A stretch of DNA of 22,421 bases from a virus (taxonomy: Duplodnaviria > Heunggongvirae > Uroviricota > Caudoviricetes): the IMG/VR virus record IMGVR_UViG_3300022758_000225, positions 1 to 22,421 of that record, one strand, 5' to 3'. Every line of letters starts with the position of its first letter. Position 1 is the first letter of the stretch. This document shows, piece after piece, positions 74-22,324 of this stretch. Position numbers and translations under genes: made by a program. Under the pieces are notes generated by a model. It saw nothing but the letters and a program-made list of their open reading frames with translations, had not been told where the DNA came from and did not search any database.

Positions 74-487
74 TCAGGCCAGCACGCCAGTTGCCAGCGC
101 ACGATCGATAAAACGAAATATCAGCTCCAGCTGGGAGCCATACTTCTCTTCAAATGCCACGATATCCGCATGCAGCTCGTCGTGATGCTTTCTGCACAGA
201 GGCAACACAAAGAGGTCATGCGCTTTTGTACCCATTCCACCCTGACCGTGGCCTATCAGGTGGTGGGGATCATCAGCAGGCTTTCCACAACATGCACACG
301 GCTGCGTCTTAACCCAGCGCGTGTACTTTTCGTTAACCCAGCGGCGACGTTTTGGGCGTAACATAAAAGACTCCGGCGACTCCGGATCCACTTTCAGCGC
401 CAGCACCTTTTTCGCTTTATTCTGGATGATGCTGGTGGCCGGAACCGAAGGAACAAGGTCACTCTCCCGGGGTGACAGACGGCACAA
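74..487 (-). CDS. HNH-like Cys/His-motif protein (DUF968-like); probably the C-terminal part of a split ydfU-like nin-region gene
   Basis: 137-aa ORF with CACCG...HH...LPLCRKHHDELH motif typical of HNH/DUF968 proteins. Track start is TTG at 487. Overlaps upstream ORF 459..1070 by 29 nt in a different frame. Confidence 0.5.
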   Translation of the reverse strand: MCRLSPRESDLVPSVPATSIIQNKAKKVLALKVDPESPESFMLRPKRRRWVNEKYTRWVKTQPCACCGKPADDPHHLIGHGQGGMGTKAHDLFVLPLCRKHHDELHADIVAFEEKYGSQLELIFRFIDRALATGVLA

Positions 488-1070
488 CAGGCTTCGGTAA
501 TCTCAGTGCCTTACGGGCTGCACTTTCAGGTAAGGCATCCGCCAGATCATTACGAACCAGCCACCAGCACAGTTCCGGCATTGTCACAACGTGACTATCA
601 TCAAAACCGAGATCCCGACGCACGACGGACAACACCCAGCGGGCACAGTTATCCGTTGCCATTGATTCCAGCCGTTCCGTGAACTGATCGCGCAGCTGGT
701 TATCGCAGTGCCAGCACAGACGGATTGCGCCCGGCGCGTGACGCATTGTGGTCATGTTCTCGCTGTGCCAGTCGGAATGAGGCCACTGGCAGCCTTTTTC
801 ACGAAGTAACCAGCTTTCAAGACATTCCACGCCACCAGCACGACGGATCACTGCCTCATTGCGGAACACGGCCCGAACGGCAGGATCATCCGCCAGCGGT
901 TGTGATGCCGCCGGAACAGCACCACTGGCGAAAGATGAATAACTTTCCGGCTCAGGCTCCAGCAGGACACGCCCCTGCATAAACAGAGGCATCAGCTCTG
1001 AACCAGGCCTGAACAATACGATCCCCATACGCGGGGCAATTTCAGGGGTCAGTAGTGCTCTCACGGTCAC
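459..1070 (-). CDS. nin-region protein, probable N-terminal part of the same ydfU-like gene
   Basis: 203-aa ORF with GTG start at 1070, directly after the KilA-N gene stop (1072-1074). Family assignment is from recall only. Confidence 0.4.
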   Translation of the reverse strand: MTVRALLTPEIAPRMGIVLFRPGSELMPLFMQGRVLLEPEPESYSSFASGAVPAASQPLADDPAVRAVFRNEAVIRRAGGVECLESWLLREKGCQWPHSDWHSENMTTMRHAPGAIRLCWHCDNQLRDQFTERLESMATDNCARWVLSVVRRDLGFDDSHVVTMPELCWWLVRNDLADALPESAARKALRLPKPVVPSVTPGE

Positions 1071-1071
1071 C

Positions 1072-1881
1072 TCAATGAACGGTATCGAGCAGCTTTAACA
1101 GCTCAGGGAATCGGGATTCGAAGAAATGCGGCTGCGTCTCGCGCGGATTTGCGGGACTAGTGATGTTCTTGCCGAACATGCAGCCTTTCGCGGTCAGCGA
1201 CCAGAATTTTTTGATGTTGTTAATCGCGGTACGGCTGTATCGTTCGCGTTGTTCAACGATCCCCAGCTTCACCATCTGGTGATATGCCTGATTAGCCGTC
1301 AGGCGGATACCATACTGTTTCAGCAGTGCACTCAGTGACAGTGTCGGGCGACTTGAGCCATCGTGTGCATCAGCAGGAGCATCAATGGCATAGCGCGGTG
1401 CCAGATTCGGTAAGCCAACAGCCTCCTGGAGTTTCTGACAGGCACCAAGCACAGATGAGTTAGACAGGTTTAACTCCCGACGCATAAAGTCCAGCAGAAT
1501 CACACCAGCCTGCATCTTGTCAGCAGCCTGTCCGGATAATTTTTCCGGTGCGCTGGTTACCATGTCGAAAGTACGGATCACCTTCAGATGGAATGACGGG
1601 CTGATCCACATTGCATAGGCATACACCAGTTCCTTGCAGACATAAGTTCCCCGTTCATTTCCCCCATGAATCACACTCACCGGGTCAACACCCAAATTCT
1701 GGGTGTTGGTCAATTCATGAACAAGTTCAACAGTTTGTTGGCTGGAAAGAAACTTTCCTGGCTCCTTGGTTCTGGCATTTGCACCAGATGCTACTGCTGC
1801 GCGATGCAGATCGTTCAGGCTGTAACGCCCATAAGCATCACGACGAACTTCAATACCATCAATGACCATCAGATTATTCAT
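1072..1881 (-). CDS. KilA-N domain protein / phage antirepressor-like
   Basis: N-terminus MNNLMVIDGIEVRRDAYGRYSLNDLHRAA is KilA-N-like. ATG at 1881 is preceded by AGGAGA; the track ORF extends to 1914. Confidence 0.7.
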   Translation of the reverse strand: MNNLMVIDGIEVRRDAYGRYSLNDLHRAAVASGANARTKEPGKFLSSQQTVELVHELTNTQNLGVDPVSVIHGGNERGTYVCKELVYAYAMWISPSFHLKVIRTFDMVTSAPEKLSGQAADKMQAGVILLDFMRRELNLSNSSVLGACQKLQEAVGLPNLAPRYAIDAPADAHDGSSRPTLSLSALLKQYGIRLTANQAYHQMVKLGIVEQRERYSRTAINNIKKFWSLTAKGCMFGKNITSPANPRETQPHFFESRFPELLKLLDTVH

Positions 1882-1900
1882 ACTTCGTTTCTCCTCTTGA

Positions 1901-2290
1901 TCAGGCGGCTGCACCCGCCGTTTTCTCGTACTTACTGATGGTGATCTCGACCTTCCCTTTCGGGATAACCGGTCCCCACTCCACCAGCATTCTTTTCACC
2001 TGTCTGTCGTCTTCCCACACACCCGCGTGGGTCAACGCGTCAAACAGCGCCTTGTTATAGTTGTCCAGATCGCGGATCCGGTTATCCGGAGGAAACAACA
2101 CGATCTCCACTGAAGCAGGTGCCGACGTTGGTTTTGGCAGACGACGTAACTGCTCAACTATTGCTGCGCACGCCGCGCTCTGAAATTTTCGCCCCGCCGC
2201 GCTTATCAGGCTCTTACCAGCAAATGCCCCTTTGTTGGGGTGTCGCCAGTACGTGTTCACGCTGGGCGGGAAAGGCAGGATCAGCTTCAT
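1901..2290 (-). CDS. rusA: Holliday-junction resolvase RusA
   Basis: 129 aa with PPSVNTYWRH, DLDNYNKALFDAL and GVWEDDRQV motifs matching E. coli RusA. Start overlaps the upstream stop as ATGA. Confidence 0.85.
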   Translation of the reverse strand: MKLILPFPPSVNTYWRHPNKGAFAGKSLISAAGRKFQSAACAAIVEQLRRLPKPTSAPASVEIVLFPPDNRIRDLDNYNKALFDALTHAGVWEDDRQVKRMLVEWGPVIPKGKVEITISKYEKTAGAAA

Positions 2291-2613
2291 ACTTTCAGGC
2301 CTCTCTCATGTAACCAGTGGGTTGCACGCAGCCTGGCGTTTTCCTCACCGGCAAGCAGTGAGCGGATAATCCCGACCGCCTCGCTGTCGTCGTCCTTCAC
2401 CGCGGTATGAAGAGTGATACCCCGGGCCACGCCACGCTTTATCGTGATGACGCCTTTTTTCTCCAGTGCGCGAAGATGTTCCACCGCTGCATTCACTGAA
2501 CGGTATCCCAGCATGGTTGCCACCTCCTGATTGGTTGGCGGGAAGCCACGTTCTTTCTGGTAAGAAATCAGCATATCCAGCACCTGCTGCTGGCATTGAG
2601 TTAACGTCGTCAT
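2287..2613 (-). CDS. LexA N-terminal DNA-binding-domain protein lacking the S24 peptidase domain
   Basis: 108 aa; QQQVLDML...GFPPTNQEVATMLGYRSVNAAVEHLRALEKKGVI aligns by eye with the LexA winged-HTH domain. No Ala-Gly cleavage site or Ser/Lys dyad. ATGA overlaps at both ends. Confidence 0.7.
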   Translation of the reverse strand: MTTLTQCQQQVLDMLISYQKERGFPPTNQEVATMLGYRSVNAAVEHLRALEKKGVITIKRGVARGITLHTAVKDDDSEAVGIIRSLLAGEENARLRATHWLHERGLKV

Positions 2614-3263
2614 GCCGCCATCTCCCTGACCAGTTTTTCCGCCTGCTGGCGAACCTGCGCCAGAAACGCCTCACCACATGCCTCAAGTTCATCGCGCCCG
2701 ATGTAGCTGATTGCCGGTCCCTTCCAGGTCTTGTCGAAAACAGCAATAGCACCAGCGAAGAAAGCGCCTGTCGGCACCTGCTTCTCGTCCTTCGGTATAA
2801 ACCAGGCAGGCAGTTCAAAACCAATACGCCCGCGAATAAAAGCAATATGATCTGCATCTTCCGGCCACCACACTTCGCTGGTGGCCGCTTTGATCAGGAA
2901 AACATAGCGCCCGCCCTTATCACGCATGGCACTGGCATGTTTCATGATGTAACGCATGCCGGTGATGTATTGCCCCTCATGCTGACTGGCGCGGCTGTAT
3001 GGGGGATTACCAAAGGCAGCACCTTTAAGCTCCGCAAGACGTTCTGACCAGTCATGCGCCAGCGCGTTATCTTCCGCCGTGTAATACGCGGCACATTTGG
3101 CGTTATCACCGTCAGTAAACAGATCCAGAACAAACGGGCCAAACAGAGTGTTAATTCCCCAGAAAATGTTGTCCGGCGTGCGCCACTGATCGCCCACTTC
3201 CTTCAGTTCATGGGCTGGTTTGTTCCGCAGTTCCACCAGTGCCTGACAATATTTATTACTCAT
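2610..3263 (-). CDS. phage N6-adenine DNA methyltransferase (Dam-like orphan methylase)
   Basis: Contains the NPPY motif (FGNPPYS) and a DLFTDGDN region typical of phage N6-adenine methyltransferases. Preferred start is ATG at 3263, overlapping the upstream stop as TAATG; the track gives a GTG at 3296. Confidence 0.8.
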   Translation of the reverse strand: MSNKYCQALVELRNKPAHELKEVGDQWRTPDNIFWGINTLFGPFVLDLFTDGDNAKCAAYYTAEDNALAHDWSERLAELKGAAFGNPPYSRASQHEGQYITGMRYIMKHASAMRDKGGRYVFLIKAATSEVWWPEDADHIAFIRGRIGFELPAWFIPKDEKQVPTGAFFAGAIAVFDKTWKGPAISYIGRDELEACGEAFLAQVRQQAEKLVREMAA

Positions 3264-3745
3264 TAAGCCCCCACGTAATTCCCTGACAGATACCACTCTT
3301 CACCCGATGCTGCGCGCTTGCTGCTTTTCTGTAAGCACTGCTCACGACGCGCCAGAAAATTGTTTCGTTCTGGCTGGGAGTGGCTTTCACGGAATGCCGC
3401 CATCCACACCGTTGCAGCACGACGGTATAAGCCCCTGGACTCCAGTTCTTCAGCCTGGCGAATCACCCGGGGATCGTTAGTGCCGACATAGAAATTGCGC
3501 ACAGGTCTGGTTTCACGAACTGGTTGTGGTTCCGGCTCCTGCGCTCTCTCAGTCAGGCGCGGGAAATGTCTGCGTGTATCTCCTTCACAACGGTGAGCCA
3601 CACGCCCACTCTGACGTAACTTGCTTGCTGACTGCAGAACGCGCTGTCGTGAGTAACCTGCAAAAGCATCCGCAATGTCTCCGAAAGTACACCCCGGATG
3701 GGCTTCAATGAATTTCTGAACTTCATTCAAAAGACTCATGATCAC
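3263..3745 (-). CDS. putative DNA-binding regulator with PerC-like C-terminal region
   Basis: 160-aa ORF in an operon of overlapping genes. The segment RVIRQAEELESRGLYRRAATVWMAAF resembles PerC-family proteins, from recall only. Confidence 0.4.
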   Translation of the reverse strand: MIMSLLNEVQKFIEAHPGCTFGDIADAFAGYSRQRVLQSASKLRQSGRVAHRCEGDTRRHFPRLTERAQEPEPQPVRETRPVRNFYVGTNDPRVIRQAEELESRGLYRRAATVWMAAFRESHSQPERNNFLARREQCLQKSSKRAASGEEWYLSGNYVGA

Positions 3746-4332
3746 CCCCTGAATCCTACCGGGATCTGGCTGTAGTCCACGTTGTCGTAACTGGCTTTGA
3801 AGTACGGGTCTTCACGTTTTTCTGTGTGCGTGCTGACGGACGGCGATAAGCGCAGGGAAAGCTCATCCCATTTTTCCCTCAACTTCGACGGGCTGAGCAC
3901 GTTACGGTACCAGAACGGATCGCGGCTGACGCGGCTGTACATCTCGCAGATTTGTTTGTGAGTACGACCATCCTGCACACACATCAGGCGAATTTCGTTT
4001 GCCCATGCTGTCCAGTTCGGTTCTTTGGGACGAACCACCTCGCCGTCACATTCGGCGGCCTGCTCGTACAGGGCGATGATTTTTTTCCAGAGCCACTGTG
4101 CGCAGGTCAAATCATCCTGCGTTCCCCACTGGCGCTTTTTAGGGCTGAATACAACCGCATCAGGATGGCGAGTTAAAAACTCCTGTTCAGCCGTTTGCGT
4201 GTCCGGTTGCGAAGCGTCCGGACGAGAAGAGGTTTTATTCTCTGTAGTAATCTCTGTTGTATTCTCTGTAAGATCATTGGGCCATTTTGACCCGATGACA
4301 GCGTGTCGTTTTGAACCAATGGATCGTGTCAT
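3742..4332 (-). CDS. replication protein, C-terminal part (O-like linker plus C-terminal domain)
   Basis: 196 aa. N-terminus is low-complexity (TENTTEITTENKTSS) and is encoded by the iteron region. ATG overlaps the stop of the replisome-organizer ORF as ATGA. Function inferred from position and iteron linkage. Confidence 0.5.
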   Translation of the reverse strand: MTRSIGSKRHAVIGSKWPNDLTENTTEITTENKTSSRPDASQPDTQTAEQEFLTRHPDAVVFSPKKRQWGTQDDLTCAQWLWKKIIALYEQAAECDGEVVRPKEPNWTAWANEIRLMCVQDGRTHKQICEMYSRVSRDPFWYRNVLSPSKLREKWDELSLRLSPSVSTHTEKREDPYFKASYDNVDYSQIPVGFRG

Positions 4333-4408
4333 TTGCGCCCATCCATCAGGTCACTTTGACCCGATGGAGAAGTGCATTTTGACCTGATGGATTCGTTCAC
4401 TTTGACCT
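4285..4408. repeat. origin-of-replication iterons (about 5 direct copies of TTTGAC(C/A)YGATGG plus one inverted copy)
   Basis: Direct copies at 4285-4298, 4309-4322, 4355-4367, 4377-4390 and a partial copy at 4400-4408. An inverted copy (ccatcaggtca) lies at 4343-4353. Spacing is 22-24 bp. They sit inside the replication gene, as ori-lambda does inside O. Confidence 0.6.
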
Positions 4409-4733
4409 CTTCTAAAAGCTCACTTTCATAGTTGATCGTGTAGAAGTTGGTCATGTCACGCTTCGATTTATTGAGTTGCTCGCGACGCAAAACCCCAAGT
4501 GATTTCAGGCTTGCAAATGTGCGTTTCAGAGTGGACTCTGACCAGAACGGAAACTGCTCCAGCCACTGTTCTGTCGTGTTATAAACCCAGCGAATTCCGC
4601 CATGCTCAGTGCCTGAATTCGTTTCATTCAGCCAGTAATGAAGCTGCTGCAACACAATTGCCTCATTCAGACCAATACGGCATGCAAGATCACGATTTAT
4701 CACAATGGGCTGGGATGTCATTAACAGGCTCAT
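4329..4733 (-). CDS. phage replisome organizer, N-terminal iteron-binding domain (lambda O-like)
   Basis: 134 aa; the N-terminus [39 protein letters not shown] resembles replisome-organizer N-terminal domains. Its 3' end is encoded by the iterons. Confidence 0.6.
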   Translation of the reverse strand: MSLLMTSQPIVINRDLACRIGLNEAIVLQQLHYWLNETNSGTEHGGIRWVYNTTEQWLEQFPFWSESTLKRTFASLKSLGVLRREQLNKSKRDMTNFYTINYESELLEEVKVNESIRSKCTSPSGQSDLMDGRK

Positions 4734-4902
4734 GACCGACCTCTATTTCCCTGAATTTACGACGAAACTGTTCGAGCGGACTGAAGCATTCATGTTCATA
4801 GCCTTCACGGAGGTAGATAACCCGTTGTGTTTCCGGCTCCCAACGAATGACTCTGACGGGCACTCCGTAGTGATCTTTGAACCAGCGGTTAACTTGTCGC
4901 AA
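4690..4902 (-). CDS. small phage protein (DUF4222-like)
   Basis: 70-aa ORF with TTG start at 4902 preceded by a strong SD (AAGGAGA at 4906-4913 on the minus strand). Motif [12 protein letters not shown]. Its 3' end overlaps the replication gene start by 44 nt. Confidence 0.45.
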
Positions 4903-5081
4903 AGGACTGTCTCCTTCTGCCGGTTGAAATCACCCACAGCCCACTCTGCAAAGCTGTGGGTTACAATTTCCCTGTCACCTGGTACATTCACTGCATAGCA
5001 ATACTCCACCTTCGCTTTTCCACCCGGTACAGGAAGCGCAATCAGTTGCGAGCGACGGTAGTGTGTTGTTAAACTGTTCAT
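4743..5081 (-). CDS. hypothetical protein (gene model uncertain)
   Basis: ATG at 5081 with GGAG about 10 nt upstream. The 3' two-thirds overlaps the DUF4222-like gene in another frame and looks low-complexity, so the true product is probably shorter. Confidence 0.2.
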
Positions 5082-5147
5082 GCGTTAGTTTCTCCACAAC
5101 CAGAAGCAATCGACGCCACGACGCCCGGAGCTGCACACTCGCGGGCG

Positions 5148-5636
5148 TCACTCTTTTCTGGAGCGCAAAAGATTTTGTAGACCAGTGCTGCATGCTCCTG
5201 GAGCTTCGCAAATTGACAGATACAACTCATCATTAATTGCTGTCTGCTCGTGTGGCTCCACTACCCCATCTTCGATTGCCGAACGAATCTGCTTTGAGTA
5301 ACTCCCGATCTGTTCGATGACTTCCAGCAGGCGCTGGTTTATATCGGCGTTCTCTACTTCCTCAATTTCAGGAAGCGATACAAACACCCCACCAGCAGAC
5401 TGTGCGACAGCATCCGCAATGTAGTGAGTGCCAGCCGCGCGCTGTAAAATCATTGCCCATCCCAGCGGGAAAATCTGATCGCCATCTGCACGAAGGCGGT
5501 TGAATAAAGCGTTCTCTGTTACATCCAGCCACTCAGCAGCTTCAGCGTAACCCCCCGGCAACGCCGCGATAGTTTTTCTGACAGCTTTCACGTACCACTC
5601 AGGCTGTTTTTCCACTTTCCAGTGATGATTACCCAC
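5148..5636 (-). CDS. CII-like regulatory protein (CP76 / YdaT-like family)
   Basis: 162 aa with GTG start preceded by AGGAGG. Lies immediately downstream of the cro-like gene, opposite the repressor. Family assignment is from recall only. Confidence 0.5.
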   Translation of the reverse strand: MGNHHWKVEKQPEWYVKAVRKTIAALPGGYAEAAEWLDVTENALFNRLRADGDQIFPLGWAMILQRAAGTHYIADAVAQSAGGVFVSLPEIEEVENADINQRLLEVIEQIGSYSKQIRSAIEDGVVEPHEQTAINDELYLSICEAPGACSTGLQNLLRSRKE

Positions 5637-5732
5637 GGCTTACCTCCTGTTCCTGTGGTTTAAAACCCATTCTGGTTTTGGCTAGATTGAAAACGTGCCG
5701 GATAAAGAATCTGCATTTCGCTGATTTCACCC

Positions 5733-5921
5733 TTAAAAAAATTGGCCAGACGTTCTGCAAGATCGATAGATGGAATTTGTTCCAGTCTTTTCAATACGAC
5801 TCAGCGTCGCTGGATTGACCTGAACGCCAGCAGCAACATGCTGCAAAGTAAATCCGTGCGCCTTACGCACATTTCCGTAATGGTGATTGCATATTACCTC
5901 CACATATTGCGTGATGAGCAT
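5733..5921 (-). CDS. Cro-like HTH (XRE-family) regulator
   Basis: HTH signature LQHVAAGVQVNPATLSRIEKTG. Divergent from the repressor gene. Internal ATG at 5921 chosen because the track's TTG at 6017 would overlap the cI start; no obvious SD, so possibly leaderless. Confidence 0.45.
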   Translation of the reverse strand: MLITQYVEVICNHHYGNVRKAHGFTLQHVAAGVQVNPATLSRIEKTGTNSIYRSCRTSGQFF

Positions 5922-5970
5922 ATTATTTTCACGCAAATATTTTGCGCAAGTTGATTTGCTTAACGCGCAA
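5907..5970. promoter_or_regulatory. OR-like operator cluster and divergent promoters between the cro-like and cI-like genes
   Basis: Three 15-bp palindromic sites centred about 24 bp apart: TTGCgtgatgaGCAt (5907-5921), cGCAAatattTTGCg (5932-5946), TTGCttaacgcGCAA (5956-5970). TTGATT at 5951-5956 and TAATAA at 5982-5987 are candidate promoter hexamers. Confidence 0.5.
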
Positions 5971-5990
5971 TAAAGAAATGTAATAAACGC

Positions 5991-6684
5991 ATGAACATAG
6001 GAAACCGAGTCAGACAACTTCGCCAGGCGAAGAACATGAAAATCGCCGATCTCGCTGAAGCAATAGGAGTGGATGCGGCGAATATCTCACGCCTGGAAAC
6101 AGGTAAGCAGAAACAATTCACTGAACAAGCCCTGAGTAATATTGCCAGGAGCTTAGGTGTTGATATTGCTGATCTCTTTACCTCAGACGTCAAAAGTAAT
6201 ACTGTATGTAAAAACAGTATTAGTGAGGATGTTGCGCAGGTGAAGGATGTATTCCGTATTGAAATGCTGGATGTCAGTGCCAGTGCGGGAAATGGCCTTA
6301 TCCAGGGCGGTGATGTCATTGATGTGATTCATGCCATTGAATACAGAACTGATAATGCTGTATCGATGTTTTGGCGGACGGCCAGCCAATCACATTAAAG
6401 TTATCAACGTTCGTGGGGACAGTATGTGTCCAACCATTGAGCCAGGAGATCTCATCTTCGTTGATGTCAGTATCAATCAGTTTGATGGAGATGGTATCTA
6501 TGTATTTGGTTTTGATGATAAAATTTATGTCAAGCGACTGCAAATGATACCTGACAAACTACTGGTGATTTCTGATAACCAGATTTACCGTGAATGGGGA
6601 ATTACCAGCGAAAATGAACACCGGTTTATGGTCTTTGGAAAGGTCTTAATCAGCCAGTCACAAACCCTTAAGCGACACAATTAA
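5991..6684 (+). pseudogene. cI-like prophage repressor (XRE HTH plus S24 LexA-like peptidase domain) interrupted by a frameshift
   Basis: ORF 5991..6398 carries the HTH (IADLAEAIGVDAANISRLETGKQ) and an Ala-Gly site (SASAGNG). ORF 6331..6684 in the +1 frame carries the S24 motifs GDSMCPTIEPGD and KRL. Removing one T from the T4 run at 6369-6372 joins them as ...NAVSMFGGRPANHIKV.... Confidence 0.7.
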
Positions 6685-6704
6685 CCCTTACCTCCTCATC
6701 AATT

Positions 6705-6726
6705 AGCCACCCAAAGGTGGCTTTTC
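6705..6726 (+). terminator. intrinsic terminator downstream of the cI-like gene
   Basis: Stem agccacc / ggtggct with loop caaa, followed by TTTT, about 20 nt after the cI stop at 6682-6684. Confidence 0.5.
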
Positions 6727-6739
6727 ATTACCCTTTAAA

Positions 6740-6792
6740 TTGCATATCTCGCAACAAAAACACTTGCATAATGCGCAACTTCATTTTATCTT
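6740..6792 (+). promoter_or_regulatory. OL-like operators with candidate PL promoter
   Basis: Two TTGC-N7-GCAA sites (6740-6754 and 6764-6778), 24 bp centre to centre, the same motif as the OR sites. TTGCAT at 6764-6769, a 17-bp spacer and TATCTT at 6787-6792 form a candidate rightward promoter. Confidence 0.4.
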
Positions 6793-7222
6793 TCTTTCCA
6801 GACAAACAAACAAGGTACTAACAAAATTTGGTTGTAACACGGCGTATGGCACATGCGTCGTTAGCGGTCTGGGGACGTTAAAGGGGACAATCCACTCCTT
6901 GCTCGGGCAAACAAACCAGGTAGCCGGAATGTGCAAGTCAATGATGATGCTGATAAGACGCCTAACCAGCGTGGCGGTTCGGTTTGACACCTGGGAAGAG
7001 ACCAGGGTGCAACGATGAGGGCATTTATGGAACCGCGACAAAGTGTGGTGCCGTAACTGGCTAAGTGCTCTCAGCGTTGTGGTGAATGCGCAGGCTGATG
7101 CGCGAAAGACATTGCAGCTATTGCGGAAAAGAGCTGTTCGGCGGGGCAATTAAACGCCCGTGAGAGTCTGAAATAACCGCAAGCCGGAGATCAGCACCGG
7201 TCACCACAACAGCCACTGCTTT

Positions 7223-7270
7223 AGCGGTACCAGTTTGTACACTTGCTTCCGGCTGGTACCGCTCTTTTTT
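7223..7270 (+). terminator. intrinsic terminator in the early-left leader (tL-like)
   Basis: Perfect 11-bp stem agcggtaccag (7223-7233) / ctggtaccgct (7253-7263) with a 19-nt loop, followed by T6 at 7265-7270. Confidence 0.5.
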
Positions 7271-7407
7271 ACAAAACAGAGAAGAGCATCACCGGACGAC
7301 GGGCTCATAACCCAATCCATCCGGGCGGCTGCCACCGCAGGTGTTCTTCTCTGTTTTGTGGAGAAACCAACCGACCTTGCAGGGTCGATATGATGAGGAG
7401 CAGCAAA

Positions 7408-7770
7408 ATGGCTAGCGTACGCAGTACTGATGTGCAGGCATTTATCGGGGAGCTGGACGGCGGCGTATTTGAAACCAAAATCGGCGCTGTTCTCAGTGAA
7501 GTCGCTTCCGGTGTGATGAACACGAAAAACAAAGGTAAGGTCTCGCTCAACCTGGAAATCGAACCATTTGATGAGAACCGTGTGAAAATCAAACACAAAC
7601 TCTCATATGTTCGCCCGACTAACCGCGGGAAAATTTCCGAAGAAGACACCACCGAAACGCCGATGTATGTCAATCGCGGTGGTCGCCTGACTATTCTGCA
7701 GGAAGACCAGGGACAATTACTGACTCTTGCCGGTGAACCTGACGGAAAACTCCGCGCAGCAGGTCATTAA
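7408..7770 (+). CDS. hypothetical early-left protein (first gene after the leader; yfdP-like by position and size)
   Basis: ATG at 7408 preceded by GAGGAG at 7395-7400; 120 aa. No similarity to lambda N. Track ORF 7243..7770 is an upstream extension without an RBS. Confidence 0.5.
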   Translation: MASVRSTDVQAFIGELDGGVFETKIGAVLSEVASGVMNTKNKGKVSLNLEIEPFDENRVKIKHKLSYVRPTNRGKISEEDTTETPMYVNRGGRLTILQEDQGQLLTLAGEPDGKLRAAGH

Positions 7771-7835
7771 TATCGTTCTTAATTAACTGATTATTTATCT
7801 CATCACTGAATATCTTAATATAGTGAGGACTTATT

Positions 7836-8659
7836 ATGTCTCAGAACTTAGACGCAACCGCAATTAATCAAATCCATGCCCTTATTTCTGCTCAGGGTGT
7901 TAATGAAATTATCAGTAAGATTGGTGCCGATGCTGTGGCATTGCCTGAGAATTTCCGCATTCATGATCTGGAAAAATTTAATTTAAATCGCTTCCGTTTC
8001 CGTGGTGCGCTTTCCACTGCCAGCATCGATGACTTTACCCGTTATTCTAAAGATCTTGCAGATGAAGGCACCCGCTGCTTTATCGATGCCGATAATATGC
8101 GAGCCATCAGTGTGCTTAACCTGGGTACTATTGATGAACCAGGTCACGCAGATAACACCGCCACTCTCAACTGAAAAAGACAGCACCGTTCTCTGCCCTG
8201 CTGTCTGTTAATGGCGAGCGTAACTCCCAGAAGTCACTGGCAGAATGGATTGAAGACTGGGCCGACTATCTTGTGGGCTTTGATGCTAATGGTGACGCTA
8301 TTAAGGCAACAAAAGCGGCTGCGGCAGTCCGTAAAATCACGATTGAAGCAAACCAGACCGCTGATTTTGAAGATAATGACTTCAGCGGCAAACGCTCTTT
8401 GATGGAGTCTGTCGAAGCGAAAACCAAAGACATTATGCCAGTAGCATTTGAGTTTAAATGCGTTCCGTTTGAAGGCCTGAAAGAACGTCCGTTTAAATTA
8501 CGCCTCAGCATTATCACTGGTGATCGTCCTGTACTGGTTCTGCGCATTATTCAGCTGGAAGCGGTGCAGGAAGAAATGGCTAACGAATTTCGTGATCTGC
8601 TTGTTGAGAAATTCAAAGACAGCAAAGTAGAAACCTTTATTGGTACTTTCACCGCCTGA
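7836..8659 (+). pseudogene. DUF2303-like (yfdQ-like) gene split by a frameshift
   Basis: N-part 7836..8174 (frame 0) stops at 8172-8174. The C-part frame is open from 8156 and continues to 8659 (track ORF begins at GTG 8273). The two frames overlap in 8156-8172; joined length is about 274 aa. Confidence 0.5.
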
Positions 8660-14736: not shown

Positions 14737-14751
14737 TATAGAGGGATTTTT

Positions 14752-15000: not shown

Positions 15001-15068
15001 TAAACACGTAAAATCGGTAACGGCTGGAAATCATTCAATACCCGCACTATCGAAAGTTCACCAGCCAA

Positions 15069-15253: not shown

Positions 15254-15547
15254 TCACCCACGATTAACCAACAGCCAGATCAGCAGACACGCCACCACCG
15301 GCACAGCAAAATCCATCAGACTTGCCATATCCCACACGCGCGGGTCAAAACCACCCCACCACGGCATATTCATACGCTTGCCATGCCCGAACATTTCAAT
15401 CCAGCGATATTCTGCCTGGGTGTGTTCCCGCGCAATGAAGAACGTACAACCGGCTATCGCCCCGTAAGCCCAGTTTCCGGTAAAAAGACCAGCCAGTACC
15501 TGCACCGCTACGGCACAAAGCGCATGAAGTATCGACGTGATATCCAT
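15254..15547 (-). CDS. small hydrophobic (membrane) protein, moron candidate
   Basis: 97 aa with hydrophobic N- and C-terminal segments (LHALCAVAVQVLAGLF and FAVPVVACLLIWLLV). Last gene of the tail operon direction. Confidence 0.45.
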   Translation of the reverse strand: MDITSILHALCAVAVQVLAGLFTGNWAYGAIAGCTFFIAREHTQAEYRWIEMFGHGKRMNMPWWGGFDPRVWDMASLMDFAVPVVACLLIWLLVNRG

Positions 15548-15556
15548 CTGCTATCC

Positions 15557-15835
15557 TTAAAACCACTCCCTGAGCGGGCGCTCTGGTGTAACCACCCACT
15601 CACGGAACACGGAATCATCAAATCCATCGTCAAGAAGACGGATATTAACAAAGTACCCTTCGTTTCGCGTGTATTCTGGTTCTCCGTCATCAGGAACATC
15701 TGTCTCCCTGAACGTAAAACCAATCTCATCAACCAGAACGGCATTCTGCAGCTCTTCGTCCTCTTCCCAGTTAAGTTTCCTGAGAAATGCCCTGAAATCT
15801 GCTTTATCACTGAAACGCAACGTGAAATCTCTCAC
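15557..15835 (-). CDS. hypothetical acidic protein downstream of the tail fibre gene
   Basis: 92 aa. Start overlaps the stf stop as ATGA. No resemblance to lambda Tfa. Confidence 0.45.
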   Translation of the reverse strand: MRDFTLRFSDKADFRAFLRKLNWEEDEELQNAVLVDEIGFTFRETDVPDDGEPEYTRNEGYFVNIRLLDDGFDDSVFREWVVTPERPLREWF

Positions 15836-17895
15836 TCCACAACCTCCCCAAGCTGCGCATCTGTTAGCTCTTTATGCCAGAGACGAAAATTCCTCACATG
15901 CCCAAATAAATGGCGTAATCCTGCTGTAGTTTGTCCACCAATGCGAATGGTTGCTGTACTCCGGATATATTCCCATGTGGTTTTTGTTTCGCTGGATATA
16001 CGCCCGTTACTTACTGCACATGTAGACTGATCTGACTTTACACGCATCCCCATAACCATTTTTTTCAACGATGCGTTTTCGTTAACACGCCTATTTGATC
16101 CACCAATATCGCAATAAGGAAATCCGTCTGGCCCATCTGCCGAAGATCCGAAGCCAAGAATAATAGCCGCTCCGGTTTGATGACCGCCGGTATCAAAAAC
16201 ACGTGGCGCTGCATTTGGCGTTTTATACCAGTTCTTATGTACCTCACAAAGAACCGTAAAAGGAAGATTATAAAGATTATTATTAATTGGAACTGTAACT
16301 ATATCGCTTGCGCGGGTAGCCGCCGTCGTTCCTGAGATAATAAAAGATGATGCACACGAACCATCCTCAACCTGAGGGGTGGCCAGATAAATATAGTCTC
16401 CAGATACGGTTGCTCCGCCCTGATTAGGAGAATACTGTATCTGAGATCCTATTTTTAACTCATCATCAATTGCCAGGATTGTTGCCTCTGCAAAAATCCA
16501 TCCGGTAGCTTCGTCCTTTCTGACTCTCGCTGTAATCCTTGAGGCCGCGCCACCTGTCATATTAATTTCAAGCGTTTGTGTATCAATATATGCATCACCA
16601 AGAAAAGTTGTTGCACTACCGTCATATTTATCAAAGCGGATACGCAACCTTACCTGTCGTTCTGTTTTAAAACGACATGAGGTTGTCACGTACTTGTTAT
16701 CGCCTGAAACATCAACTGACTTTGTAGCAGCAATTGATGCCATATTAATGGCTGACGTTTGCCCAATCAGAGAATCGTTACAAACAAACTTTCCATAAGT
16801 AAAACCAAAACTATCAGTTCCAACCTCAGCGACATTCATATTTGCAGATTTACCCCAAGAAGCTGGAGTTGCTGAATTCAACATGTAGTTGGTTCGCTGA
16901 CCTTCAATCAATAAACCTTCTTTTTCAAATCGTGGCTCATTAATTTCCGCCGTTTTCAGTTCGCCAGATTTGTTGATATATGTTGCCGTTGATGCGCGAC
17001 TGAAATTAACCTGTTTATCACTGGCAACCTGAACCACATTATCACCAATCTTCACTTTTTTATAACCCGGAGAATAGCCCGTAATCATATCCAGCGAATC
17101 ATTAAAGGGTATCCACACATCCGGCAGCGGCTGTAAAACATATCTGTACGGCTCTGCTGTCTGGTTTGCGTATTCTCTGGCAGCATCTTCACTTGCTTTT
17201 GCTGCCGTCTGGCTTGCTGCCGATGCTTTCGCCGAGTTCGCCGCCGCTGTTTCGCTCACCTTTGCGTTGGCTTCACTGTCTTTGGCATTCGTCTCACTGG
17301 TTTTCGCTGCCGTCTGGCTGGATTTTGCGTTTTTTTCGCTGGCCTTTGTGGCTGTCTCGCTATTTTTCGCGCTGGTTTCTGATTTTTTGGCTGCTGTCGC
17401 GGAGTTTGCCGATGCAGTCTGCGAGGCCGCTGCCGCCTGTGCGCTGTTAGCTGCATTCGTTTCTGAGGTTTTCGCCGCATTCTTCGATGAGGCTGCTGCC
17501 GTTTCGGATTTCTTTGCCGCCGCTGCACTCTGTGATGACGCTCCGGCATGACGTGCCACTTCATTCACCATCAGCTCAAAACGGCGCAGTGCCTCCGGAC
17601 GGGCATCATCCTCCGTCATGGCACCGAGAAAATCATTCAGCGTACCTGGTCTGGAACCTTCATAGACGGTAATGGTCCCGGCATGTGAAGGTGGAAAACC
17701 TTCAACCAGCAGGGTGACGCTGTACTGGCCATACTCAACATCCATGCTGTAACGCCCGGCTTCATCCGGATTTTCTGAGGCCACCGTGTTCACCACCACC
17801 GTGGTGCTGTTACGTTTTGCTTTCAGCTGGATTGTGCAGTTCTGTACCGGTTTACCTGCACCGTCTTTCAGTACACCTGAAATCTTTACTGCCAT
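15832..17895 (-). CDS. stf: side tail fibre protein (lambda Stf-like N-terminus, A/S/T-rich repeat stalk, lectin-like C-terminal domain)
   Basis: N-terminus MAVKISGVLKDGAGKPVQNCTIQLKA...GFPPSHAGTITVYE matches lambda Stf. C-terminus GHVRNFRLWHKELTDAQLGEV resembles the end of concanavalin-A/LamG-type domains. ATG at 17895 with a GGGGTGA SD. Confidence 0.8.
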   Translation of the reverse strand: MAVKISGVLKDGAGKPVQNCTIQLKAKRNSTTVVVNTVASENPDEAGRYSMDVEYGQYSVTLLVEGFPPSHAGTITVYEGSRPGTLNDFLGAMTEDDARPEALRRFELMVNEVARHAGASSQSAAAAKKSETAAASSKNAAKTSETNAANSAQAAAASQTASANSATAAKKSETSAKNSETATKASEKNAKSSQTAAKTSETNAKDSEANAKVSETAAANSAKASAASQTAAKASEDAAREYANQTAEPYRYVLQPLPDVWIPFNDSLDMITGYSPGYKKVKIGDNVVQVASDKQVNFSRASTATYINKSGELKTAEINEPRFEKEGLLIEGQRTNYMLNSATPASWGKSANMNVAEVGTDSFGFTYGKFVCNDSLIGQTSAINMASIAATKSVDVSGDNKYVTTSCRFKTERQVRLRIRFDKYDGSATTFLGDAYIDTQTLEINMTGGAASRITARVRKDEATGWIFAEATILAIDDELKIGSQIQYSPNQGGATVSGDYIYLATPQVEDGSCASSFIISGTTAATRASDIVTVPINNNLYNLPFTVLCEVHKNWYKTPNAAPRVFDTGGHQTGAAIILGFGSSADGPDGFPYCDIGGSNRRVNENASLKKMVMGMRVKSDQSTCAVSNGRISSETKTTWEYIRSTATIRIGGQTTAGLRHLFGHVRNFRLWHKELTDAQLGEVVE
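17180..17560. repeat. imperfect tandem repeats encoding the Ala/Ser/Thr/Lys-rich stalk of Stf
   Basis: Repeated gctgccg / ttcgc / ttttcgc units on the plus strand, translating to KxSETxAxNS-type repeats. They generate spurious ORFs on both strands. Confidence 0.5.
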
Positions 17896-17906
17896 ATTCA
17901 CCCCAC

Positions 17907-17932
17907 AAAAAAGCCCGCCTGAACCGGCGGGC
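17907..17932 (-). terminator. intrinsic terminator downstream of lom
   Basis: Minus strand reads GCCCGCC-ggttca-GGCGGGC followed by TTTTTT, ending just upstream of the stf SD. Confidence 0.5.
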
Positions 17933-17959
17933 TGTCATAACACTGTGTTACCTGGCTAA

Positions 17960-18559
17960 TCAGAACTTATAACCGACACCCACGATGAACCCGTCAGTGC
18001 GCCAGTTGCCACTGCCGGAGCCTTCATAAGCGACATCAACGGCCACGGATTCGGTCGGGTTAAACTGCACGCCAGCTCCCCACGCCAGAGAGGTGTTACT
18101 GTGGCGAGCGTCATCACTTCCGGTCAGCACGTCGTGCGTTTTTCCCTTGTTGTCAGTTACGCGGAGATAATCCCCGGAAAAAGTCGACACACGGCTGTAA
18201 GCCACGCCTGCCATCGCATACGCGCTGAACCATTCATTCACGCGTACAGACGGCCCCGCCATCACGCTGAACCAGCGGTTACGCACGGAATCCTCATGCC
18301 AGCGGGTATCGCTGTAATGCGTTTTTTGCTCATCTTCAGCGTTGGCATAACTGAATGACGTAATCAGCCCCAGCGTGTCCGTAAACTCATAACGGTATTT
18401 CACGTTAATCCCGTTCAGATTATCGCTGCCGGGAGCGTTCGTACGGGCATGAAGATACCCTGCGCTCAGTGTGGCCTGCTGCTCAGACGCCCATGCAGGC
18501 GCACCGGATACGGCCAGACAGATGGCTGCGGACAAAATGGCTGCACAAACTTTACGCAT
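17960..18559 (-). CDS. lom: outer-membrane protein Lom (Ail/Lom family)
   Basis: 199 aa with signal peptide; GINVKYRYE and C-terminal AYEGSGSGNWRTDGFIVGVGYKF match lambda Lom. Confidence 0.85.
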   Translation of the reverse strand: MRKVCAAILSAAICLAVSGAPAWASEQQATLSAGYLHARTNAPGSDNLNGINVKYRYEFTDTLGLITSFSYANAEDEQKTHYSDTRWHEDSVRNRWFSVMAGPSVRVNEWFSAYAMAGVAYSRVSTFSGDYLRVTDNKGKTHDVLTGSDDARHSNTSLAWGAGVQFNPTESVAVDVAYEGSGSGNWRTDGFIVGVGYKF

Positions 18560-18583
18560 AATTACCTCTCGCTTTTCTGCAAT

Positions 18584-18607
18584 AAAAAAGGCGCCAGAAA
18601 TGGCGCC
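18584..18607 (-). terminator. intrinsic terminator between J and lom
   Basis: Minus strand reads GGCGCC-atttct-GGCGCC followed by TTTTTT. Consistent with lom being a separately expressed moron. Confidence 0.5.
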
Positions 18608-18627
18608 CGCATATGGGTTATGAAAAT

Positions 18628-21600
18628 TCAGCTAATCGTGATACCTGCTGTGGATTTCTTCATCACCACAACCAGCAAATCACTGATACTGGCTGTGGGA
18701 TACCAGTCATTTACCAGCCACGCTGATACCGAAAACTCCAGCGTCATGTGACCGCGACCAGCAGGCATATCAATAACACCTGTATAAACCAGCGTATTAT
18801 CCAGCGCGGTACGGTTATAAATTTCAGCACCGTTTTTCTTCACTATCAGGCGGCATGACGAATAAATATCGTTATTCTCCCGCTCATGTTTAGCGCCACG
18901 AAACGCCACCGCGGGAATAACAATCTGCCGGTTAAACGGCTGATCGTCATAAACCCTGACGGTAATGGTTCCTGATGGCCAACGCTTCGGTGCACGGGAG
19001 TCACGGGGGAAAGCCTTACCCACTGTTTTAACGAGATCGCCTTCAATCTGGTTTGCAGACAGTTTCCCTCTGATGACACAGTTCTCGTTAATGGTGACAT
19101 TATTGAGCGTGCCGGTATTCGCCGTGATGGCTCCACTGATATCCGCATTGCGGGCTGTCAGCCTGCCATCCGGCGTCAGGGAAAACGTCGGAGGATTGCC
19201 GGATGACGTGATGCTCACCGCAAACAGTCGCTTCAGGAACACGTCGTTCATGAACAGCTGATTCCCCTGCGCCACAAACAGCGGCGTGGTGTTGCCGTTC
19301 TCCGGGGTAATCATCGCAATGCGATCGGCCTGCAGCAGAATGTTACTCAGGGTCTGATCATCAACATCCTCAATCCCCGCGCCAATCCCGGCCACATAGG
19401 GAATACCGTTTTTGTTTCTGCACCTTCAGCATATACATGGCATTCAGCTCATTGCGCGTGTCTGACTGAACCCGCTGGATTTGCTGTATGGTCACGGCCT
19501 GGTCACCCAGCTTTTTATCCGTGGTCGAGGTAATTTCACTCCCTTTTTTATCCACGTACTGGCGGACCTGTGCTATCTGTCGGGCGTTTTCTGACTGCCC
19601 CTGGCTGACAGTCTGTGAGATTTCACTGCTCACCCGGTCCACTTTCTGGCTCACCTGCGCGATGGCCAGTGTCTGGTCCTCATTCTTTTTCGCAACCAGC
19701 TGCGTGAGGCTGTTTTCCGCCTTCCCGATTTTCCGGGTCACTTCTGCGATATCCGTGTCCATCCGCTGACGGATATCTTCTTCCAGTTGCGTGACCTCCG
19801 TACGCAGCGCTGAAGCATCAATGCGCTCTTTCAGTGCCTGACCCAGAAGCGTCTCATCTATCAGCCCCCCGGAAAATTTCCAGATACCCTTCACCATCAT
19901 TGCTGGGCTGCCCGCTGGCTTCCACAAAAGCAGATTTCCCCACCAGGTTGACGCTGCGCACGTAAAACCAGAAATCCGTCCCCGGCTTAATCCGGCTCCC
20001 CTGGACAGTCCACTGACTGCCGGTCCCCAGATAACGGGCAGATTTTCCACCTGTGCTGTGTTCGTGATGCGTTTTTCTGAGAACCAGAATTCAAACTGTA
20101 CCGTCGGGTCATACACCGCAAGACGCGGGACCGCCGTTATCTGAAAATACCCCGGCGTCAGCTCAATCCGAGACGGCGCTGCCGGTGCGGCAATCCGGAA
20201 CGATACCGATGCCGGATCGCCCTGCTGCCCCCACGCATTTACTGCCCGGACTGTCAGCGTGTACCGCCCCAGCGCCAGTTGCGTGAAGCGGTATGTGGTT
20301 TCCGTCGTCCGGGCCGTGCTGACCAGCCGCTCACTGCCGTCATCCGCTGCCACGGTCAGGCGAAGCATAAAGCTCACGCCCTTCACCACCTTCGGCGTGT
20401 CCCAGCGCGCCAGCACCTGATATTCCCCGCTGTCTGCGGTAACTTCGGCGGTCAGGTGCTGCACCGCTGGCGGCGTGACACCATTCACCGTGCCGCTCTG
20501 GTCGCCGTCAAAGTGCGCCCCGTTATCCACGATGGCCTCTTTTGCCGGTACATGCTGTACGGCGGTGATGGCATACGTACCGTCGTCATTCTCACGGATA
20601 CTCACACAGCGGAACAGGCGCTGGCGCAGCGTCGGCAGCTTCAGCCCCCACACGCTGTATCCGGCAACGCCGTCAGGAACACGGCTCACTTTCACCTTCA
20701 CACCGTCGGTGACGGACTGGACCTCCACGCTCACCGGATTACCCTGCCCGTCAACCAGGCTTATCAGCGTGGTGCCGGAGGATGGCAGCGTGATTTCACG
20801 GTCGAGCGTCAGCGTCCGGGTCTGGCTGTTTACCGCCAGCACGCGCCCGCCGGTGCTGATACCGGCATAGTCATCATCGCAGATTTCAATGACATCGCCC
20901 GGTACATGGCGAAGCCCTTCGGCACCCACGCTGAAGTCCACGGTCTGCGTTTCCAGCAGTTCCGTTTTAATCAGCCACAGCCCGGCGCGGTGCGCCTGCC
21001 CCCGGCTGGTACAGCCAAAGGCATCCATCTTCGTGACGTTACGACCGTAACGGGCAATGGCCTGCGTATCTTCAACAAGCTCTGTCGCCGTCTCCCAGCC
21101 GTTATCCGGGTCAATCCAGTTCACCTCAACGGCATTATGGCGGTCCTTCAGGGCGCTGAAGCTGTAGCGGAACGGCGCGCCATCATCCGGCATCACCACA
21201 TTACTGCGGTTATAGGTCCACACCTTATCCGACGGTCGGTCCTGCACGAACGTCAGCGTCTGCCCGTTCCATACCGGCATACAGCGCATCGCCGAGCAGA
21301 AATCGCTGAGAACATCCCACGCCTTACGCTGTGTGGTCAGCCAGGCATTACAGGTGATGCGCGGCTCCGTGCCGCCAAAGCCGTCCGGCACTGACTGGTC
21401 GCAGTACTGGCCGATGACATACAGCGCCCATTTATCCACATCCGCCGCACCAAGACGTTTCCCCATGCCGTAGCGCGGATGGGTCAGCATATCCCACAGA
21501 CACCAGGCCATGTTGTTGCTGTATGCTGGCTTAAACGTTCCGTCCCAGATACCGCTGTATTGCCGCGTCTGCGGGTTATAATTCGACGGCACCTGCAGAA

Positions 21601-22324
21601 TACGCCCGCGAAGATGATAATTACGGCTCACCTGCTGGCTGCCGAACTGTTCCGAGTCCACCTGTACGCCGACCAGTGCCGTGTTCGGGTAGCACTGTTT
21701 CACATCGATGATTTCAGTGTATGACGACCAGAGCGTTTTGTTCTGCAGCTGGTCTGTGGTGCTGTCCGGCGTCATCCTGCGCATCCGGATGTTGAACGGG
21801 CGCGGCGGCAGGTTACCCACCACCACCGAGGCCAGATACTGCGAGGTGGTTTTGCCCTTAATGGTGATGTCTTTTTCCGTCACCCAGCCACCGTTACGCT
21901 GTATCTGAACCAGCAGGCGGACTTCCGACGGATTCCGGTCCCCCTTTGAGGTGGTTTCCACCAGTGCCTGCACACCGAAGGTAAAGCGCAGACGGTCAAT
22001 GTTTGCCGACGTGATGGTCCGGGTGATCGGCGTGTCATATTTCACTTCCGTACCCAGCACCGTCTCGGAGCCGGAGGATTCAAATCCCTCCGGCGGAGTC
22101 TGCTCCTGCTCACCTGCCCGGAACACCACCGTTACGCCGGAGATGTTGGTATTCCCCTCACTGTCCAGCACCGGTGTACTGTTCAGCAGCACGCTTTTTA
22201 AGCCATCCACCGGACCTTCAACCGGCCCTTCACTGATGGCATCGATCACACTCAGCAACTGCGTGGACTTCAGATTGTCCTTCGCTTCGCGCGGGGTATG
22301 CCCCTTACTGCTGCCTTTACCCAT
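18628..22324 (-). pseudogene. J: tail tip / host-specificity protein J, interrupted by single-base frameshifts
   Basis: The first ~800 aa of ORF 19370..22324 are near-identical to lambda J. The segment encoded 20046->19870 is out of frame; the alternative frame gives KSARYLGT...YVRSVN...GKSAFVE...GEGYL, matching J. ORF 18628..19395 carries the J C-terminus. Breaks at T4 20043-20046, C6 19865-19870 and T5 19409-19413. Confidence 0.8.

What the first reader, a model, noticed from the sequence alone, without database searches (positions are those of the whole stretch)
19409..20046. Three single-base frame breaks in J, two of them compensating
Between 20046 and 19870 the annotated frame gives Gly/Ser/Arg/Trp-rich nonsense, while the alternative frame encodes a recognisable J segment (KSARYLGT...FWFYVRSVN...GKSAFVE...GEGYL). 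The switches coincide with T4 at 20043-20046 and C6 at 19865-19870. The second switch restores the original frame, so about 58 codons are substituted without a stop. A third break at T5 19409-19413 separates the last 255 residues into ORF 18628..19395.
Basis: seen in the sequence. Interest (0 to 1): 0.6.

Follow-up and report, generated by a model that had tools for sequence, protein, structure and literature searches.

The report
Homopolymer sequencing errors splitting phage J
The frame breaks in this phage tail-tip gene J are really in the sequence, but they belong to 14 one-base homopolymer miscounts spread over an otherwise perfectly matching phage genome, so they are almost certainly sequencing or assembly errors.

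Summary
On the minus strand, J (18628-22324) leaves its frame at the A4 run (20043-20046), returns at the G6 run (19865-19870), and breaks again near 19409-19417. The other frame between the first two sites encodes genuine J sequence.

One correction: the third break is two separate one-base losses, 5 nt apart (A4->A3 at 19415-17, A6->A5 at 19409-13). That makes four indels, not three. Repairing all four gives one 1232-aa ORF, identical at residues 1-1142 to the intact J of E. coli IHE3034 and PMV-1.

These indels are not special to J. The window is the excised form of a dusA-integrating lambdoid phage. Each part matches a public sequence with no substitutions, apart from the short att overlap, but with 14 one-base indels. 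Thirteen of the 14 change a mononucleotide run. Ten lie outside J and also break the cI-like repressor, the cro-like gene, ymfL, yfdQ, a DUF968 gene and a hypothetical gene.

None of the window's run lengths occurs in 5,426 complete E. coli genomes. None of those scanned for was found in IMG/VR, GTDB genomes or JGI metagenomes.

Verdict: consensus homopolymer errors (about 0.9). Real decay, a mutator origin, recoding and phase variation are each contradicted. The "compensation" is a coincidence. Interest is low.

The parts
18628..22324 (-). Tail-tip / host-specificity gene J. Once the four run lengths are corrected it is a single 3699-nt, 1232-aa gene.
   Evidence: The repaired ORF has no internal stop. 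It is identical to WP_000515673.1 (IHE3034, PMV-1) at aa 1-1142, with 8 differences in the C-terminal receptor-binding domain. It has the full gpJ Pfam domain series. 114 of the 120 best protein clusters are exactly 1232 aa.
20043..20046 (-). Break 1: A4 on the J strand where relatives have A5, so one base is missing. Frame shifts by -1.
   Evidence: Alignments to IHE3034 and PMV-1. 69 of 69 IMG/VR loci carry A5. 0 of 1318 matching E. coli records reach 99% identity over an 81-nt probe; the best is 98.8%, which is one gap. The window variant is absent from IMG/VR and JGI metagenomes.
19868..20044 (-). 59 codons (aa 761-819 of the as-written ORF) read in the wrong frame. The correct frame encodes the second half of the second Ig-like domain of J.
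19865..19870 (-). Break 2: G6 on the J strand where relatives have G5, so one base is extra. This returns reading to the original frame.
   Evidence: 62 of 69 IMG/VR loci have the exact G5 version and none has G6. 0 of 1248 matching E. coli records reach 99% identity; the best is 98.8%. Absent from IMG/VR and GTDB genomes.
19415..19417 (-). Break 3a: A3 on the J strand where relatives have A4, so one base is missing.
   Evidence: No IMG/VR locus has either 'half-repaired' version.
19409..19413 (-). Break 3b: A5 on the J strand where relatives have A6, so one base is missing. Together with 3a the net shift is -2, which cuts off the last 255 codons.
   Evidence: 69 of 69 IMG/VR loci have A4-C-A6. 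The window version has 0 hits in IMG/VR, GTDB genomes and JGI metagenomes. The best E. coli record is 97.6%, which is two gaps, among 619 records.
19370..22324 (-). As-written ORF A (984 aa): the J N-terminal part, containing the 59 wrong-frame codons and ending in a 14-aa out-of-frame tail.
   Evidence: This product is not on record among 153 billion gene positions.
18628..19395 (-). As-written ORF B (255 aa): the J C-terminal part, comprising the rest of Phage_Tail_Tip plus the Ig_GpJ_C receptor-binding domain.
469..8168 (.). Ten further one-base indels of the same kind, at or next to 469 (+G), 4331 (-T), 5209 (+C), 5662 (+A), 5788 (+T), 5872 (+T), 5926 (+T), 6369 (+T), 7265 (+T) and 8168 (-A). 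They break the DUF968 gene, a hypothetical gene, ymfL, the cro-like gene (three times), the cI-like repressor and yfdQ. Two are intergenic.
   Evidence: Window 1-13417 against PMV-1 shows 10 gaps and no substitution before the att core.

Best explanation
The frame breaks are errors in the consensus length of short mononucleotide runs, introduced by the sequencing or assembly that produced this record. This is the usual error type of long-read, pyrosequencing and semiconductor data. The underlying phage very probably carries an ordinary intact 1232-aa J with A5, G5, A4 and A6 at the four sites.

Shown here: the window differs from exact public matches only by 14 one-base indels. Thirteen of them lengthen or shorten a run. 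They hit genes and spacers alike, and none is seen in any other sequence searched.

Inferred: that the cause is technical. The reads and the source record were not available.

The apparent compensation (-1 then +1, 177 nt apart) is a coincidence of two independent miscounts with no stop codon in between.
For: 1. Indel-only divergence. Window 1-13400 against PMV-1 shows 10 indels and 0 substitutions. Window 8300-13300 and 20100-22300 are 100.0% identical to PMV-1. Window 13404-18902 is 100.000% identical to contig L075. Window 18913-21305 against IHE3034 shows 4 indels and 0 substitutions. The total is 14 indels to 0 substitutions.

2. Homopolymer association. 8 of 9 insertions extend an existing run (chance P=3e-6). 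5 of 5 deletions lie in runs of 3 or more (P=1e-4). The reference runs are short, 2-6 nt.

3. Two independent one-base losses lie 5 nt apart in AAAACAAAAAAC. This fits a context-dependent miscount.

4. No sign of selection. 12 of 14 indels are in coding sequence. They destroy J, the cI-like repressor, the cro-like gene and others, although the DNA is in the excised phage form with the attP joint intact.

5. Uniqueness. The window's run lengths are absent from 5,426 complete E. coli genomes. Each site variant scanned for was also absent: site 3 from IMG/VR, GTDB genomes and JGI metagenomes; site 1 from IMG/VR and JGI metagenomes; site 2 from IMG/VR and GTDB genomes. The intact lengths are universal. 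The frameshift products are not on record.

6. The error density of 14 per 22.4 kb (6e-4 per base) matches that reported for an uncorrected long-read bacterial assembly: 2900 errors, less than 0.05% of the assembly, mostly homopolymer indels (PMC12007338).
Against: No reads, quality values or source record could be examined, so the technical origin is inferred rather than observed.

The indels are clumped: 9 in 4331-8168, 4 in 19409-20046, and none in an 11.2-kb stretch (P about 0.001). Neither homopolymer density nor repeat copy number in PMV-1 explains this. A uniform per-base error process would not give this pattern. Patches of low consensus quality would, but that is a guess.

Run slippage is also a genuine mutational mechanism.
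Confidence: 0.9

Rival explanations
1. The mutations are genuine. The phage, or a defective derivative of it, has really acquired slippage frameshifts that inactivate J and other genes, and the -1/+1 pair in J is a true intragenic suppressor pair.
For: Slippage at mononucleotide runs is a real mutation class, and inactivated J genes are common in cryptic lambdoid prophages (general knowledge). The breaks are clumped rather than evenly spread.
Against: 14 indels with 0 substitutions over about 22 kb.

Even mismatch-repair-defective E. coli accumulate 30,061 substitutions to 5,324 small indels (PMC8510543). At that ratio, 14 of 14 events being indels has probability about (0.15)^14, or 3e-12.

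The runs affected are short (2-6 nt), whereas real slippage favours long runs. In one search the hotspots are 8-9 nt runs.

The 'suppressor' pair replaces half of an Ig domain with unrelated sequence, and J is broken again 450 nt later, so nothing is rescued.

The repressor, cro and J are all broken in DNA that is in the excised form. No other record shares any of the alleles.
Confidence: 0.06
2. Recoding. J is expressed from the sequence as written, by programmed ribosomal frameshifting or transcriptional slippage at the runs.
For: The breaks sit on A and G runs. Lambda-like tails do use a programmed -1 frameshift, in G/GT (general knowledge).
Against: All relatives encode J in one frame. This holds for 114 of the 120 best clusters (1232 aa), for the 69 IMG/VR loci, and for 600-1300 E. 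coli records per site.

None of the sites is an X XXY YYZ heptamer in the reading frame: G GAA AAT, C CGG GGG G and C AAA AAC (read).

The shifts required are -1, +1 and then -2/+1 in succession. The runs of 3-6 nt are far below the roughly 9 nt generally needed for efficient transcriptional slippage (general knowledge).

The same indels occur in six unrelated genes and two spacers.
Confidence: 0.01
3. Phase-variable (contingency) tracts switch J on and off.
For: The frame depends on mononucleotide run length.
Against: Tract lengths do not vary across all the relatives examined. The tracts are only 4-6 nt. Four tracts would have to be 'off' at once, together with ten more elsewhere in the window.
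Confidence: 0.01

Closest known systems
Homopolymer-length indel errors in long-read, pyrosequencing or semiconductor assemblies (gene-fragmenting errors, e.g. as treated by Kastor, PMC12007338)
   Same: One-base insertions and deletions in short A/T and G/C runs, with no accompanying substitutions. The density is about 5e-4 per base. Genes split into adjacent ORFs that a close reference shows to be one gene.
   Different: The platform and reads are unknown. The errors here are clumped into two patches rather than spread evenly.
Intact 1232-aa gpJ of the dusA-integrated lambdoid prophage of ExPEC strains IHE3034 and PMV-1 (WP_000515673.1)
   Same: The DNA is identical apart from the four indels between window 21305 and 18913, and 100% identical to PMV-1 over 20100-22300. 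The neighbours are the same: lom, stf, DinI-like gene, integrase.
   Different: There are 8 amino-acid differences in the C-terminal receptor-binding domain. That part of the window is identical to contig L075 instead. The window is in the excised, attP form.
Bacteriophage lambda gpJ (1132 aa; PDB 8iyk, 8xcj, 9wca)
   Same: The same domain series. The wrong-frame stretch corresponds to conserved lambda sequence (STRYLGTALYW...[19 protein letters not shown]...AEGYLDFF).
   Different: This J has about 100 extra residues (aa ~839-940 of the repaired protein) between the second Ig domain and the tail-tip domain, with no counterpart in lambda J.
Programmed -1 frameshift in lambda G/GT
   Same: A frame change within a tail gene of a lambdoid phage.
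   Different: G/GT is conserved as two frames in all relatives and uses a slippery heptamer. Here the relatives are single-frame and no heptamer is present.

Membership tests
Lambda-type tail tip attachment protein J (gpJ) | Domain series FNIII-A_GpJ, Phage-tail_3, Ig_J, Ig_J_second, Phage_Tail_Tip, Ig_GpJ_C | tested here: met
   All six domains are found in order in the repaired protein (E from 1e-24 to 1e-43). As written, Ig_J_second is truncated and Phage_Tail_Tip is split between two ORFs.
Lambda-type tail tip attachment protein J (gpJ) | One continuous reading frame | tested here: not met
   As written there are two ORFs (984 and 255 aa) plus 59 off-frame codons. The feature is met only after four one-base corrections.
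Lambda-type tail tip attachment protein J (gpJ) | Position downstream of tail assembly gene I and upstream of lom and stf | tested here: met
   lom lies at 17960-18559 and stf at 15832-17895, downstream on the same strand. The order is the same as in IHE3034 and PMV-1, where I precedes J. The window ends 97 nt upstream of the J start.
Consensus homopolymer-length sequencing error | Differences from near-identical references are one-base indels in mononucleotide runs, without substitutions | tested here: met
   14 indels, 13 of them in runs, and 0 substitutions.
Consensus homopolymer-length sequencing error | Spread over the record irrespective of gene or function | tested here: met
   Seven genes and two spacers are hit. 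The indels are, however, clumped into two patches.
Consensus homopolymer-length sequencing error | Not reproduced in independent sequences of the same element | tested here: met
   No hits for the window variants in the collections scanned. The intact variants are universal.
Consensus homopolymer-length sequencing error | Reads or accurate re-sequencing give the reference run lengths | not testable with these tools
   The source record and reads were not available. The window was not found in the phage, plasmid or E. coli genome collections.
Programmed ribosomal frameshift or transcriptional slippage site | The two-frame arrangement is conserved in relatives | tested here: not met
   Relatives are single-frame.
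Programmed ribosomal frameshift or transcriptional slippage site | Slippery heptamer X XXY YYZ in frame, or a long (about 9 nt or more) A/T run | tested here: not met
   The sites read G GAA AAT, C CGG GGG G and C AAA AAC, with runs of 3-6 nt.
Phase-variable homopolymer tract (contingency locus) | Tract length polymorphic among close relatives | tested here: not met
   No record with a different length among 619-1318 matching E. coli records per site, nor among 69 IMG/VR loci.

The most novel reading that the evidence does not exclude
The 14 indels are real. In that case they would record a frameshift-only mutational process acting in patches on an excised lambdoid phage genome, for example an error-prone, slippage-biased copying step. 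The result would be a freshly inactivated phage whose J carries a 59-codon out-of-frame substitution.
Probability: 0.04. Interest if true: 0.4.

Novelty: not a real feature. Interest (0 to 1): 0.06.

Why it matters
This matters mainly as quality control. This record, or the assembly it comes from, should not be used to infer J pseudogenisation, host range, defective virions or recoding. At about 0.6 indels per kb, many of its genes will appear fragmented.

The corrected J is an ordinary member of the 1232-aa gpJ family found in ExPEC dusA prophages. If the indels were real the case would be odd, because no known spontaneous process gives indels without substitutions. Nothing here supports that reading.

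Tried and rejected
1. Finding the source record. The window's J segment, immunity region and attP joint were searched in phage, plasmid and complete E. coli collections. The as-written frameshift products were looked up by exact sequence. No identical record was found, so the platform and reads remain unknown.

2. Independent occurrences of the window's run lengths. Exact-pattern scans of IMG/VR, GTDB genomes and JGI metagenomes gave nothing.

3. Mutator origin. Rejected on the substitution-to-indel ratio of MMR-defective E. coli.

4. Explaining the clumping of indels by homopolymer density. Rejected.

5. Explaining the clumping by repeat copy number, meaning failed short-read polishing in repeats. 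Indel-rich and indel-free segments each have about 4 places in PMV-1, so this is not discriminating.

6. Recoding and phase variation. Rejected on comparative grounds.

7. A single 2-nt deletion at break 3. Impossible, because the C between the two A runs is retained, so the two losses are separate.

Full report
**What is in the window.** The minus strand of 15832-22324 carries the end of a lambdoid tail module: J (18628-22324), lom (17960-18559) and a side tail fibre gene (15832-17895/17901). The closest complete genomes are ExPEC strains IHE3034 and PMV-1. In both, the same genes lie in a prophage integrated in dusA, and J is a single 3699-nt, 1232-aa gene, WP_000515673.1.

Window 1-13417 is the early and immunity arm of the same PMV-1 prophage. 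In the window that arm is joined to the integrase side across a 14-nt overlap (13404-13417). In PMV-1 the two arms lie at opposite ends of the prophage, next to zur and dusA. The window is therefore the excised (attP) form. Related phages are recorded as circular 'plasmid' contigs with the same joint and a 5' dusA fragment.

**Checking the observation.**
- The 984-aa ORF 19370-22324 reads 59 codons of unrelated sequence (aa 761-819, window 20044-19868).
- The alternative frame reads [12 protein letters not shown]...[24 protein letters not shown].
- That sequence aligns with solved lambda-type gpJ chains (9wca, 8iyk, 8xcj).
- It completes Pfam Ig_J_second, which is otherwise cut at profile position 48 of 105.
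- The last 255 residues form a separate ORF, 18628-19395, which carries the rest of Phage_Tail_Tip and the Ig_GpJ_C receptor-binding domain.

**Correction to the observation.** Base-level alignment to IHE3034 and PMV-1 shows four one-base differences, not three:

| Site (J strand) | Window coordinates | Relatives | Window |
|---|---|---|---|
| Break 1 | 20043-46 | A5 | A4 |
| Break 2 | 19865-70 | G5 | G6 |
| Break 3a | 19415-17 | A4 | A3 |
| Break 3b | 19409-13 | A6 | A5 |

The two losses at break 3 are separated by a retained C, so they are independent events 5 nt apart. Correcting the four runs gives one uninterrupted 1232-aa ORF. It is identical to WP_000515673.1 at residues 1-1142, with 8 substitutions in the C-terminal domain. 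That C-terminal DNA is itself 100% identical to an independent contig, L075.

**The decisive context.** The J breaks are not special to J.
- Window 1-13400 differs from PMV-1 by ten one-base indels and no substitution.
- Window 8300-13300 and 20100-22300 are 100.0% identical to PMV-1.
- Window 13404-18902 is 100.000% identical to L075.
- Window 18913-21305 differs from IHE3034 only by the four J indels.

The whole window is thus made up of segments that each match a public sequence without substitution, apart from the short att overlap, plus 14 one-base indels. Eight of nine insertions extend an existing run (chance P=3e-6). All five deletions fall in runs of 3 or more (P=1e-4).

The ten non-J indels break a DUF968 gene, a hypothetical gene, ymfL, the cro-like gene (three +1 insertions with stops in between), the cI-like repressor and yfdQ. 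Two are intergenic. So 12 of 14 indels are in coding sequence, with no avoidance of essential functions.

**Uniqueness.**
- In 5,426 complete E. coli genomes, no record comes closer than four gaps over 901 nt.
- With 81-83-nt probes, none of 1318, 1248 and 619 matching records carries the window's run length at site 1, 2 or 3. The best identities are 98.8%, 98.8% and 97.6%, which correspond to 1, 1 and 2 gaps.
- Exact scans for the window variants returned nothing: site 3 in IMG/VR, GTDB genomes and JGI metagenomes; site 1 in IMG/VR and JGI metagenomes; site 2 in IMG/VR and GTDB genomes.
- The intact site-3 version is present in 69 IMG/VR contigs. Those loci carry the intact versions of sites 1 and 2 in 69 and 62 cases.
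- The frameshift products are not on record.
- 114 of the 120 best protein clusters for the repaired J are exactly 1232 aa. 44 of them are identical to it across aa 740-1000, which spans all the breaks.

**Interpretation.** An indel-only, homopolymer-bound, function-blind and unique set of differences, at 6e-4 per base, is the signature of consensus run-length errors. Long-read assemblies are reported to carry mostly homopolymer indels at a similar density: 2900 errors, less than 0.05% of one assembly (PMC12007338).

The -1/+1 pair is two independent miscounts. With 9 insertions and 5 deletions in the set, opposite signs are unremarkable. A stop-free 59-codon off-frame stretch occurs at 5.5-17.6% of positions in this gene. 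I put this explanation at about 0.9. The technical cause is inferred, because the reads were not available.

**Rivals.**
- **Genuine decay or a mutator origin.** Even MMR-defective E. coli give 30,061 substitutions to 5,324 small indels (PMC8510543). At that ratio, 14 of 14 events being indels has a probability of about 3e-12. Real slippage also favours long runs, not runs of 2-6 nt. In addition, the phage would have lost its repressor, cro and J while sitting in the excised form.
- **Recoding.** This is contradicted by the single-frame relatives, by the absence of slippery heptamers, and by the mixed shift directions that would be needed.
- **Phase variation.** This is contradicted by tract lengths that do not vary across relatives.

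**Unexplained residue.** The indels are clumped: 9 in 4331-8168, 4 in 19409-20046 and one at 469. An 11.2-kb stretch is clean (P about 0.001). Homopolymer density does not explain this. Copy number in PMV-1 does not discriminate either. Patches of low consensus quality are a plausible but untested reason, for example long-read bridges between accurate short-read contigs. The one short-read contig identical to the window breaks inside J at 18902.

**Verdict.** The biological interest is not supported. The feature is best filed as a sequence artefact over an ordinary gpJ gene.

Noticed in passing
window 13404-14690: The window holds the excised-form joint of a dusA-integrating phage. The early arm ends at about 13403. 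A 14-nt overlap (13404-13417) is shared with both prophage ends in PMV-1. A 5' dusA fragment (about 13404-13504, minus strand) follows, then a tyrosine integrase (13593-14690, +). Related phages appear as circular 'plasmid' records, e.g. NZ_CP081704.1.
   Followed up: partly
window 5629-5892 (minus strand): The cro-like HTH gene carries three separate +1 insertions (5662, 5788, 5872). The net change is +3, so its ends are in frame while the middle has two stops. This is a second coincidental 'compensation' in the same window.
   Followed up: yes
window 4331-8168 and 19409-20046 versus 8169-19408: The 14 indels are clumped into two patches, with an 11.2-kb clean stretch between them. Homopolymer density does not explain this, and copy number in PMV-1 does not discriminate.
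   Followed up: partly
L002:1197-2371 (PMV-1 prophage, about 630 nt beyond window position 1): Between the Q antiterminator and the lysis genes, the PMV-1 copy of this phage carries a scabin-related ADP-ribosyltransferase and a subtilase-family AB5 toxin B subunit. This looks like a pertussis-like AB5 toxin cassette as phage cargo.
   Followed up: no
L074:7915-10015: Another prophage with an identical 687-aa side tail fibre gene carries three genes with CdtA, Exo_endo_phos and CdtA-type domains just downstream. This looks like a cytolethal distending toxin operon.
   Followed up: no
window about 19500-19810 (aa ~839-940 of repaired J): This 1232-aa J family has about 100 residues with no counterpart in lambda gpJ (1132 aa). 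They lie between the second Ig domain and the tail-tip domain and are rich in Q, E, K and heptad-like spacing.
   Followed up: no
window 18622 and 17893: Two length differences from PMV-1 are shared exactly by the independent contig L075, so they are genuine variation: an extra C in the J-lom spacer and a missing GCA codon at the stf start. This shows that true indels can be told apart from the unique ones.
   Followed up: yes
window 17166-17564 (minus strand, stf aa ~115-245): There is a long Ala/Ser/Lys/Thr-rich repetitive segment in the side tail fibre (…AKKSETAAASSKNAAKTSETNAANSA…). It produces several spurious overlapping ORFs on both strands.
   Followed up: no
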